62,425 nt of DNA from a virus. Taxonomy: Duplodnaviria; Heunggongvirae; Uroviricota; Caudoviricetes. The DNA is taken from IMG/VR virus record IMGVR_UViG_2877269240_000007. One strand, given 5' to 3'. This document shows positions 20,848 to 20,922 of the stretch, one piece after another (position 1 is the stretch's first letter; each line of letters begins with the position of its first letter). Under the pieces are notes generated by a model, which made no database searches, had not been told where the DNA came from, and saw nothing but the letters and a program-made list of their open reading frames with translations. The position numbers and the translations under genes were made by a program.

Positions 20848-20922
20848 GCCGACTTAGCTCAGCAGGCAGGGCAACTGACTTGTAATCAGTAGGTCACCAG
20901 TTCGATTCCGGTAGTCGCACCA
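20848..20922 (+). tRNA. tRNA-Thr (UGU), probably defective copy
   Basis: lacks one G in the 3' acceptor strand (AGTCGC vs AGTCGGC in copy 2) and has a D-stem A-to-G change. Confidence 0.55.

What the first reader, a model, noticed from the sequence alone, without database searches (positions are those of the whole stretch)
20848..20922. Duplicated four-tRNA cassette; the tRNA-Thr in copy 1 has a damaged acceptor stem
Two about 390-bp cassettes (20610-21000, 31432-31823) each encode tRNA CAU (Ile2/Met-type), Arg-UCU, Thr-UGU and Gly-UCC downstream of a Q-like gene. Copy 1 of tRNA-Thr lacks one G in the 3' acceptor strand (AGTCGC versus AGTCGGC) and has a D-stem A-to-G change; copy 2 folds perfectly. 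The Arg-UCU species decodes rare AGA codons, typical of phage-borne tRNAs.
Basis: seen in the sequence. Interest (0 to 1): 0.45.

Follow-up and report, generated by a model that had tools for sequence, protein, structure and literature searches.

The report
Decayed threonine tRNA in prophage remnant
Two defective prophages in a Shigella flexneri-type chromosome each carry the same four-tRNA module for rare codons, and the threonine tRNA in the more degraded prophage has lost a base from its acceptor stem, which is ordinary gene decay rather than a new kind of element.

Summary
ARAGORN finds two identical-order cassettes: tRNA-CAU (Ile2 type), Arg-UCU, Thr-UGU and Gly-UCC. They lie inside 406-bp blocks (20597-21001 and 31419-31824) that are 98% identical and have unrelated flanks.

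Within the tRNA genes the copies differ only in Thr copy 1, by A23G (20870) and loss of one G of the 3' acceptor strand (next to 20917). The Rfam tRNA score falls from 69.8 bits (intact) to 55.9 (deletion alone) and 51.5 (both changes). The cloverleaf loses about 7-8 kcal/mol.

The deletion is real and inherited. It is present at the same locus in S. flexneri SFBU1023, CP000266.1 and ECMA0423, while the same locus in five E. coli-type records is intact.

Copy 1 sits in a prophage remnant whose Q-like gene and holin gene are both cut by IS elements. Copy 2 follows an intact Q gene and is unchanged in other genomes.

Thr and Gly are near-copies of host thrU and glyT. The Ile-Arg half resembles ileZ-argN of Stx phages. 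The four cognate codons (AUA, AGA, ACA, GGA) are 1.8-5.6 times enriched in the prophage and ipaH genes.

Verdict: a redundant tRNA pseudogene in a known kind of phage tRNA module. Interest is low.

The parts
18695..18808 (+). 5' fragment of the Q-like (DUF1133) gene of prophage remnant 1, cut off by an IS
   Evidence: Pfam DUF1133 profile positions 1-39. In uninterrupted orthologues the gene starts 4 nt before the YbcO stop. The IS boundaries follow from the BLAST of L020 against the window.
18809..20060 (+). IS3-family element of about 1.25 kb inserted in the Q-like gene (boundaries approximate)
   Evidence: HTH_Tnp_1 and rve ORFs at 18846-19184 and 19211-20050. The same element is repeated at about 4366-5618 and 23062-24313. 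It is absent from L014, L015, L020 and L021.
20061..20501 (+). 3' fragment of the Q-like (DUF1133) gene
   Evidence: DUF1133 profile positions 35-176, E=4.1e-78, and a weak Phage_antitermQ hit. PHROG 753 'anti-termination protein Q-like', E=3.3e-53.
20573..20603 (+). Terminator-like hairpin plus U-run (tR'-like) immediately upstream of cassette 1
   Evidence: strand folding: -11.7 kcal/mol, z=-2.5. The shared block begins inside its T-run.
20597..21001 (+). Cassette 1: the shared 406-bp tRNA module, copy in prophage remnant 1
   Evidence: 399/406 identical to 31419-31824.
20652..20681 (+). Sigma-70-like promoter of the module (TTTGCA-18-TATTAT, or TTGCAG-17-TATTAT), ending 9 nt before the first tRNA
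   Evidence: TTGCA and GTTATTAT are invariant across 7 cassettes, including a variant with a diverged spacer. Function is inferred.
20691..20767 (+). tRNA-Ile2 type (anticodon CAU), identical to copy 2
   Evidence: 70.5 bits. 69/77 identical to K-12 ileX. PGAP names the orthologue tRNA-Ile.
20769..20845 (+). tRNA-Arg (UCU), identical to copy 2
   Evidence: 56.4 bits. 88-90% identical, together with the Ile gene, to ileZ-argN of Stx phages.
20848..20922 (+). tRNA-Thr (UGU), damaged: A23G at 20870 and one G missing from the 3' acceptor strand next to 20917. Predicted pseudogene.
   Evidence: 51.5 bits against 69.8; cloverleaf -13.5 against -21.5 kcal/mol.
20926..21000 (+). tRNA-Gly (UCC), identical to copy 2 and to K-12 glyT
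   Evidence: 64.9 bits; 75/75 identical.
21681..21773 (+). 5' stump of the P21-type holin gene of prophage 1, cut by the next IS (ORFs 21814-22943)
   Evidence: Phage_holin_2_1 profile positions 1-26 of 64 only. The intact orthologue has holin, lysozyme and Rz here.
30933..31313 (+). Q antiterminator gene of prophage 2
   Evidence: PF06530, E=5.8e-54, full profile.
31400..31425 (+). Terminator hairpin (CCCGCC/GGCGGG) plus U-run upstream of cassette 2
   Evidence: strand folding: -18.9 kcal/mol, z=-3.1.
31419..31824 (+). Cassette 2: the shared 406-bp tRNA module, intact copy
   Evidence: 406/406 identical in 6 of 7 other genomes with the same Q gene.
31474..31503 (+). Sigma-70-like promoter of the module, copy 2
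31513..31589 (+). tRNA-Ile2 type (CAU)
31591..31667 (+). tRNA-Arg (UCU)
31670..31745 (+). tRNA-Thr (UGU), intact, 74/76 identical to K-12 thrU
   Evidence: (69.8 bits).
31749..31823 (+). tRNA-Gly (UCC)
32116..32331 (+). Intact P21-type holin gene downstream of cassette 2, start of the lysis genes
   Evidence: PF04971, E=5.5e-35.

Best explanation
The window is a Shigella flexneri-type chromosomal region, rich in IS elements and bounded by ipaH genes, that holds two defective lambdoid prophages. Each carries one allele of the same small tRNA module between the terminator after its Q-type antiterminator gene and its holin gene.

The module has its own sigma-70-like promoter and four tightly packed tRNA genes with encoded CCA ends, separated by spacers of 1, 2 and 3 nt. 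They are Ile2 (CAU, reads AUA after lysidine modification), Arg (UCU, AGA), Thr (UGU, ACA) and Gly (UCC, GGA).

The module most likely supplies tRNAs for A-ending codons that the host uses rarely and that the prophage and ipaH genes use more often.

The Thr gene of cassette 1 (20848-20922) is a pseudogene in the making. A 1-nt deletion shortened the 3' acceptor strand, so the acceptor helix can form only 6 pairs with a bulged C2 or C3. This disturbs the top of the stem, where the bacterial threonyl-tRNA synthetase identity pairs G1-C72 and C2-G71 lie. A later A23G change weakened the D stem.

The loss is tolerated because the gene is redundant with host thrU and with the intact Thr of cassette 2, and because prophage 1 is already dead.

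What is shown: the sequence changes, their polarity (the orthologous locus is intact in E. coli), their inheritance, and the score and energy losses. What is inferred: loss of processing and charging, promoter activity, and the codon-supply role.
For: - Structure and score. The Rfam tRNA model gives 69.8 bits for the intact gene, 55.9 for the deletion alone (SFBU1023) and 51.5 for the deletion plus A23G. Infernal places a gap in the 3' acceptor strand. Cloverleaf energy is -21.5, -14.4 and -13.5 kcal/mol respectively. Predicted acceptor pair probabilities fall from 1.0 to about 0.5 and then below 0.1.
- Identity elements. Bacterial tRNA-Thr determinants are G1-C72, C2-G71, G4-C69 and G5-C68 plus the anticodon (Table 1 of PMC9976931).
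- Polarity and inheritance. The same locus is intact in FDAARGOS_944, RMDEC465, CP065611, UGBG01000002 and PSSP01000001. It carries the deletion in SFBU1023, ECMA0423, CP000266.1 and CP026772.1. Only 1 of 5,426 complete E. coli genomes has the deletion allele.
- Decay context. The Q-like gene is split by an IS, the holin is truncated by an IS, and DUF1367 is truncated by an IS.
- Redundancy. Thr of copy 2 is 74/76 identical to thrU and Gly is 75/75 identical to glyT. Copy 2 is unchanged in other genomes.
- Selection on the neighbours. The leader is 5/94 diverged, but the Ile2, Arg and Gly genes show 0 differences in 229 nt of gene sequence.
- Codon use. AUA is 2.9 times, AGA 5.6 times, ACA 2.8 times and GGA 1.8 times enriched against 48 K-12 genes, all with p<=2.6e-6. 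CUA, UUA, CCA, GUA, AAA, GAA and CAA are not enriched.
- Known kind. tRNA genes downstream of Q, including Thr-UGU with ACA bias, are described for SfI, Sf6, ST64T, PS3 and P21 (PMC3636060).
Against: - No expression, processing or charging data exist here.
- The damaged gene still passes every detector used: ARAGORN calls it, its 51.5 bits exceed the 29-bit threshold, and PGAP annotates the same deletion allele as a normal tRNA-Thr. A bulged 6-bp acceptor helix can formally keep G1-C72 and C2-G71, so residual function is not excluded.
- ViennaRNA does not recover the cloverleaf as the minimum-energy fold even for the intact gene. The energy argument therefore rests on evaluating imposed structures.
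- AGG and CGG are also enriched in the prophage genes although the module has no dedicated tRNA for them. Codon matching is therefore imperfect.
- Prophage 2 is also defective (split portal and J genes), so 'dead prophage' alone does not explain why only copy 1 decayed.
Confidence: 0.8

Rival explanations
1. The damaged Thr gene still yields a working, if weaker, tRNA-Thr. The acceptor helix forms with one bulged C, G1-C72 and C2-G71 are retained, and RNase P, ThrRS and EF-Tu tolerate it.
For: The covariance-model score of 51.5 bits is well above the 29-bit gathering score. ARAGORN calls it. PGAP annotates the same deletion allele as tRNA-Thr. The anticodon arm, T arm and encoded CCA are untouched. 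The allele has persisted across several S. flexneri lineages.
Against: The helix is one pair short and kinked at the site that ThrRS reads. The cloverleaf is 7-8 kcal/mol less stable, and for the double mutant it lies 4 kcal/mol above a competing non-tRNA fold. A second lesion has accumulated in the same gene, while the three neighbouring tRNAs have none. Persistence in Shigella is expected for neutral pseudogenes.
Confidence: 0.12
2. One or both differences are sequencing or assembly errors in a repeated 400-bp block.
For: A23G was found only in the window and in CP026772.1. That record is 100% identical to the window over 8,291 bp and may be the same assembly. A23G gave no hits in viral or metagenome collections. 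CP130061.1 is 99.96% identical over the same 8.3 kb yet shows the intact Thr at both positions. This could reflect repeat mis-polishing in one of the assemblies.
Against: The deletion is present in at least four other records at the same locus (SFBU1023, ECMA0423, CP000266.1, CP026772.1). It is also present in a different cassette type in FDAARGOS_943 and two IMG/VR contigs. It is therefore not an error of one assembly.
Confidence: 0.05
3. The deletion allele is kept or spread because it does something else. It could be an uncharged tRNA-like RNA, a decoy, or a way of lowering Thr-UGU dosage. It would move between prophage cassettes by gene conversion.
For: The identical deletion occurs in two cassette backgrounds, Ile-Arg-Thr-Gly and Ile-Lys-Thr-Gly. 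A third, independent lesion hits the Thr gene of FDAARGOS_943: GT to TC in the anticodon stem. Thr is the only gene of the module seen damaged in this sample. Cassettes are clearly mosaic, since copy 2 shares its right flank with the Ile-Lys-Thr-Gly type.
Against: The sample is small. All sequences are identical from the Thr anticodon arm to the end of Gly, so recombination alone can carry the allele across without selection. Only 1 of 820 E. coli genomes with a prophage Thr-Gly junction has it. A further mutation (A23G) is accumulating, as expected for a neutral relic. No function is suggested by any tool result.
Confidence: 0.03

Closest known systems
ileZ-argN-argO tRNA cluster downstream of Q in Stx-converting lambdoid phages (933W type)
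   Same: Same position, between the Q antiterminator/terminator and the late genes. The Ile2(CAU)-Arg(UCU) half of the module is 88-90% identical to annotated ileZ-argN of Stx2 phages (AP012530.1, AP012538.1, phage 2851, Nil2). Same presumed role of decoding the rare AUA and AGA codons.
   Different: The third and fourth genes are Thr(UGU) and Gly(UCC) instead of a second Arg. No stx genes follow. No record of the 50,697-genome phage collection covers 80% or more of the module. Ten of 5,426 complete E. coli genomes do.
tRNA genes downstream of Q in Shigella and Salmonella lambdoid/P22-like phages (SfI, Sf6, ST64T, PS3, P21)
   Same: A tRNA-Thr(UGU) directly downstream of Q. ACA bias of the phage relative to S. 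flexneri is reported (PMC3636060), as found here.
   Different: Those phages carry one or two tRNAs (Asn, Thr), not this four-gene set. No damaged allele is described in the passages read.
Host thrU-tyrU-glyT-thrT operon of E. coli
   Same: The Gly gene is 75/75 identical to glyT and the Thr gene 74/76 identical to thrU. The Thr-Gly half is therefore a captured or converted copy of host genes.
   Different: No tyrU or thrT. Thr and Gly are separated by only 3 nt. The location is in a prophage, behind a separate promoter-like site.
Pseudogenes and IS-driven decay in Shigella genomes
   Same: The surrounding genes are cut by IS3-family elements, and the portal and J genes of prophage 2 are split. 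High IS load and pseudogenisation in Shigella are well described (abstract of PMC8072062).
   Different: Here the decayed gene is a tRNA hit by point lesions, not a protein gene hit by an IS. Annotation pipelines do not flag it.

Membership tests
Canonical bacterial elongator tRNA (Rfam RF00005) | Covariance-model score above the family threshold | tested here: met
   Copy 1 Thr scores 51.5 bits and copy 2 scores 69.8 bits against a gathering score of 29.
Canonical bacterial elongator tRNA (Rfam RF00005) | Uninterrupted 7-bp acceptor stem followed by a discriminator base and CCA in register | tested here: not met
   Copy 1 has 7 nt on the 5' strand but only 6 on the 3' strand. The best it can form is 6 pairs with a bulged C2 or C3. 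Copy 2 and host thrU have 7 of 7 pairs.
Canonical bacterial elongator tRNA (Rfam RF00005) | Intact D, anticodon and T arms with a 7-nt anticodon loop | tested here: met
   The anticodon and T arms are identical to copy 2 and thrU. The D stem keeps four pairs, but U12-A23 becomes a U-G wobble, at a cost of about 4.4 bits and 0.9 kcal/mol.
Substrate of E. coli-type threonyl-tRNA synthetase | G1-C72 and C2-G71 in a regular helix, plus G35 and U36 | tested here: inconclusive
   The determinants are listed in PMC9976931, Table 1. G35 and U36 are present. The pairs can be drawn only next to a bulge. Charging was not testable.
tRNA pseudogene | Lesion in a conserved helix relative to an intact orthologue at the same locus | tested here: met
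   Five E. coli-type records at the orthologous locus are intact. The S. flexneri-type records carry the deletion.
tRNA pseudogene | Further lesions accumulate while the neighbouring genes stay unchanged | tested here: met
   A23G is added in the window and CP026772.1. The Ile2, Arg and Gly genes have 0 differences between the copies.
tRNA pseudogene | No mature, charged product | not testable with these tools
   This needs tRNA-seq, Northern blots or aminoacylation assays.
Lambdoid late-region tRNA module (Q - terminator - tRNAs - lysis genes) | Located between a Q-type antiterminator gene with its downstream terminator and the holin gene | tested here: met
   Copy 2: Q PF06530, hairpin 31400-31425, holin 32116-32331. 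Copy 1: Q-like DUF1133/PHROG 753, hairpin 20573-20603, holin stump 21681-21773.
Lambdoid late-region tRNA module (Q - terminator - tRNAs - lysis genes) | The tRNAs match codons over-used by the phage relative to the host | tested here: met
   AUA, AGA, ACA and GGA are 1.8-5.6 times enriched (p<=2.6e-6). Seven other A-ending codons are not. AGG and CGG are enriched without a dedicated tRNA.
tRNA-Ile2 (lysidine-dependent CAU tRNA) rather than tRNA-Met | Sequence of ileX/ileY type with C4-G69 and C5-G68 in the acceptor stem | tested here: met
   69/77 identical to K-12 ileX. The acceptor is GGCCCUU/AAGGGCC. PGAP names the orthologues tRNA-Ile, while ARAGORN, which reads only the anticodon, says Met. 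That TilS uses these two pairs as determinants is from my own knowledge and was not checked here.

The most novel reading that the evidence does not exclude
The intact cassette may no longer be a phage accessory. It could be a host-retained ('domesticated') source of AGA, AUA, ACA and GGA decoders that supports translation of rare-codon-rich virulence genes such as the flanking ipaH genes. Gene conversion between prophage cassettes would both spread and repair lesions such as the Thr deletion.

The evidence does not exclude this. AGA is 13.5 times enriched in the two ipaH genes. Cassette 2 is base-for-base conserved in 6 of 7 other genomes although the portal and J genes of its prophage are broken. 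One near-identical genome has both Thr lesions 'reverted' at once.
Probability: 0.2. Interest if true: 0.45.

Novelty: new member of a known kind. Interest (0 to 1): 0.17.

Why it matters
The practical value is in annotation. Pipelines label the damaged gene as a normal tRNA-Thr, so tRNA gene counts and codon-adaptation estimates for S. flexneri are overstated by one ACA decoder.

The locus also gives a clean, dated example of stepwise tRNA gene decay: intact, then the deletion, then the deletion plus A23G. It comes with an internal control, namely three untouched neighbouring tRNAs and an intact paralogue 10.8 kb away.

It also shows that these phage tRNA modules are mosaics of phage (ileZ-argN-like) and host-derived (thrU and glyT) halves. 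None of this changes current understanding of phage-borne tRNAs or of Shigella genome reduction.

Tried and rejected
- Plain minimum-energy folding was not informative. Even the intact gene does not give a cloverleaf. I therefore evaluated imposed cloverleaves and pair probabilities. A first evaluation wrongly counted the native A52-C62 mismatch as a pair and was redone.
- My first reading, that C2-G71 must be lost, was softened after Infernal's alignment showed an equally good register with C3 bulged.
- The terminator scan did not report the two hairpins upstream of the cassettes. They were checked by folding instead.
- Metagenome scans for the A23G allele and for the deletion allele found nothing. 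A viral-contig scan for A23G also found nothing.
- Literature searches for 'ipaH island' with tRNA, and for ileZ/argN/argO, returned nothing useful. The S. flexneri 2a 301 genome paper is not held.
- I considered a recent in-genome duplication. I rejected it because the flanks are unrelated and the leader is 5% diverged.
- I considered a sequencing error for the deletion. I rejected it because several independent records share it.

Full report
**Observation**

ARAGORN finds eight tRNA genes in the window, in two sets of the same order. They are CAU, Arg-UCU, Thr-UGU and Gly-UCC at 20691-21000 and at 31513-31823.

A direct comparison gives a single shared block, 20597-21001 against 31419-31824, with 399/406 identities and one gap. 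On both sides the sequences are unrelated.

Five of the six mismatches lie in the 94-nt leader. Within the tRNA genes the only differences are in Thr of copy 1:
- G instead of A at 20870 (tRNA position 23, so U12-A23 becomes U12-G23).
- AGTCGC instead of AGTCGGC in the 3' acceptor strand.

The Rfam tRNA model scores the intact copy at 69.8 bits and the damaged one at 51.5 bits.

**How bad is the damage**

An S. flexneri record that has the deletion but keeps A23 scores 55.9 bits. The deletion therefore costs about 14 bits and A23G about 4.

Infernal aligns copy 1 with a gap in the 3' acceptor strand. The helix can form six pairs with either C2 or C3 bulged, and both registers have the same energy.

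| Allele | Imposed cloverleaf (kcal/mol) | Predicted acceptor pair probability |
|---|---|---|
| Intact | -21.5 | 1.0 |
| Deletion only | -14.4 | about 0.5 |
| Deletion + A23G | -13.5 | below 0.1 |

In the double mutant a competing non-tRNA fold is 4 kcal/mol better than the cloverleaf. Minimum-energy folding alone is not a fair test, because even the intact sequence does not give a cloverleaf.

The lesion sits at the top of the acceptor stem. The bacterial threonine identity set places G1-C72 and C2-G71 there (PMC9976931, Table 1). The anticodon arm, T arm and encoded CCA are untouched.

The T-stem A52-C62 mismatch in both copies is native, because host thrU has it too. I infer that processing and charging are lost or strongly reduced. 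This was not measured.

**Is it real, and which state is ancestral**

An exact-pattern scan found the deletion in S. flexneri SFBU1023 and in a record named E. coli ECMA0423, at the same locus with the same flanks. It also found the deletion in two IMG/VR contigs.

A look-up of the neighbouring YbcO protein brought in ten more genomic places. Their alleles sort as follows:
- Deletion plus A23G: CP026772.1, which is 100.000% identical to the window over 8,291 bp.
- Deletion only: SFBU1023, ECMA0423 and CP000266.1. From memory, CP000266.1 is S. flexneri 5 strain 8401.
- Intact at the same locus: FDAARGOS_944, RMDEC465, CP065611, UGBG01000002 and PSSP01000001.

Among 5,426 complete E. coli genomes only one carries the deletion allele. 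The intact state is therefore ancestral. The deletion is an inherited allele of the S. flexneri lineage and not an assembly error.

A23G is a later addition, seen only in the window and in its identical match. No viral or metagenome contig has it. Whether A23G is a true strain-specific change or an error of one assembly cannot be settled here.

**Two details point to exchange between cassettes**

First, the same deletion occurs in a different cassette type, Ile-Lys-Thr-Gly, in E. coli FDAARGOS_943 and in the two IMG/VR contigs. All cassettes are identical from the Thr anticodon arm to the end of Gly, so recombination can move the allele without leaving a trace.

Second, CP130061.1 is 99.96% identical to the window over 8.3 kb, including the IS in the Q-like gene. 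Yet it has the intact Thr at both positions. The simplest reading is conversion from the intact copy 2. A repeat-polishing artefact is the alternative.

FDAARGOS_943 also shows an independent lesion in its copy-1-type Thr, GT to TC in the anticodon stem. Thr is the only gene of the module seen damaged in this small sample.

**Context**

The window carries ipaH-type E3 ligase genes at both ends, 1-1812 and 59603-61366, and many IS3-family elements.

Cassette 1 belongs to a prophage remnant:
- It has a repressor-like gene, replication genes, QueH, hok/sok, DUF1367, YbcO and a Q-like DUF1133 gene. The DUF1133 gene matches PHROG 'anti-termination protein Q-like' at E=3.3e-53.
- The DUF1133 gene is split by a 1.25-kb IS.
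- After the tRNAs comes a holin gene cut after 26 of 64 profile positions by another IS.
- The uninterrupted version of this prophage in E. coli has DUF1133, the same four tRNAs with a 76-nt Thr, and then holin, lysozyme and Rz.

Cassette 2 follows a full Q gene (PF06530). Behind it lie holin, lysozyme, Rz and the structural genes. That prophage is defective too, because the portal and J genes are each split and three IS elements separate the lysis genes from the terminase gene. Cassette 2 is base-for-base identical in six of seven other genomes that carry the same Q gene.

**What the module is**

Both blocks begin in the T-run of a terminator hairpin after the Q-type gene. They end one base after the CCA of tRNA-Gly.

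Nine bases before the first tRNA lies a sigma-70-like site, TTTGCA-18-TATTAT. Its hexamers are invariant across seven cassettes, including the Ile-Lys-Thr-Gly type whose spacer has diverged. This suggests that the module can be transcribed without Q. That is an inference.

The genes are separated by 1, 2 and 3 nt and all encode CCA.

The module is a mosaic:
- The Ile2-Arg half is 88-90% identical to annotated ileZ-argN of Stx2 phages.
- The Gly gene is 75/75 identical to K-12 glyT and the Thr gene 74/76 identical to thrU.
- The CAU tRNA is 69/77 identical to ileX, and PGAP names it tRNA-Ile.

No sequenced phage in the 50,697-record collection covers 80% or more of the module. Ten complete E. 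coli genomes do.

**Likely function**

All four tRNAs read A-ending codons that the host uses rarely. The comparison is the prophage and ipaH genes of the window (11,809 codons) against 48 K-12 genes (14,522 codons).

| Codon | Enrichment in prophage and ipaH genes |
|---|---|
| AUA | 2.9 times |
| AGA | 5.6 times |
| ACA | 2.8 times |
| GGA | 1.8 times |

All four have p<=2.6e-6. CUA, UUA, CCA, GUA, AAA, GAA and CAA are not enriched. In the two ipaH genes AGA is 13.5 times enriched. AGG and CGG are also enriched without a dedicated tRNA, so the match is not perfect.

This fits the usual codon-supply explanation for phage tRNAs. It also fits the published ACA bias of the S. flexneri phage SfI, which carries a Thr-UGU gene downstream of Q (PMC3636060).

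**Why only Thr of copy 1 decayed**

The gene is triply redundant, with host thrU and cassette 2. Its prophage has lost its late genes.

The leader divergence of 5/94 predicts about a dozen differences in the 229 nt of the Ile2, Arg and Gly genes if they were unconstrained. None is seen. Those three genes have therefore been under constraint or homogenised. Thr carries both of the changes found in the tRNA genes.

**Comparison and verdict**

This is a known kind of element, the tRNA cluster between Q and the lysis genes of lambdoid phages. It sits in a genome known for IS-driven decay (PMC8072062 abstract).

Three points are specific here:
- The four-gene composition.
- The stepwise decay series of one member.
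- Annotation pipelines still call the damaged gene a normal tRNA.

Interest is low. The most novel reading left open is that the host retains the intact cassette for rare-codon virulence genes and that cassettes repair each other by conversion. I give this about a 20% chance.

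Noticed in passing
window 14897-15583 (+): A prophage-borne epoxyqueuosine reductase gene (QueH, PF02677, E=1.9e-65), a tRNA-modification enzyme, sits in the same prophage remnant as cassette 1. It is conserved in the E. coli and Shigella orthologues. Its PHROG family (phrog_3217) has no assigned function.
   Followed up: partly
window 1-1812 (+) and 59603-61366 (-): Two ipaH-type genes (LRR plus NEL E3 ligase domains) bracket the prophage region. The first runs off the window start. AGA makes up 23% of their Arg codons.
   Followed up: partly
window 8347-8535 (-) and 26183-26371 (+): Two inverted copies of an isrK sRNA plus C4 antisense RNA pair (Rfam, 58-76 bits), each next to Ash/Rha-type genes. 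This suggests two P1/Gifsy-like antirepressor control modules and a third prophage fragment in the opposite orientation in the left part of the window.
   Followed up: no
window 15641-15966 (+): A hok/sok type I toxin-antitoxin locus lies in prophage remnant 1. The sok RNA scores 117 bits and a 70-aa hok-type ORF lies at 15754-15966.
   Followed up: no
window 40250-41843 and 53223-56703 (+): The portal gene and the tail-tip J gene of prophage 2 are each split into two overlapping ORFs that cover consecutive parts of the Pfam profiles. Prophage 2 is therefore also defective even though its tRNA cassette is intact.
   Followed up: partly
window 32335-32964 (+): A 209-aa ORF between holin and lysozyme has no Pfam match. 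It hits only PHROG families of unknown function (phrog_1085, E=9.9e-74). It is conserved at this position in other genomes.
   Followed up: partly
L011 (E. coli FDAARGOS_943, NZ_CP065615.1 around 2082091-2082166): The Thr gene of the copy-1-type cassette in this genome has a different lesion, GT to TC in the 3' strand of the anticodon stem. A second cassette (Ile-Lys-Thr-Gly) in the same genome carries the G deletion. PGAP annotates both as tRNA-Thr.
   Followed up: partly
L016 (CP130061.1) against window 14408-22696: This record is 99.96% identical to the window, including the IS in the Q-like gene, but its Thr gene is intact at both lesion sites. Possible causes are gene conversion from cassette 2 or repeat mis-polishing.
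   Followed up: partly
window about 4366-5618 (-), 18809-20060 (+), 23062-24313 (-); also 2611-3873, 6052-7288, 16911-18175, 22244-23064, 34410-35464, 36775-37858: There are at least nine copies or fragments of two IS3-family elements, of about 1.25 kb and 1.26 kb. One copy contains an ALIL frameshift pseudoknot (36323-36439, 116 bits). The elements cut DUF1367, the Q-like gene and the holin gene, and they separate the lysis genes from the terminase gene.
   Followed up: partly
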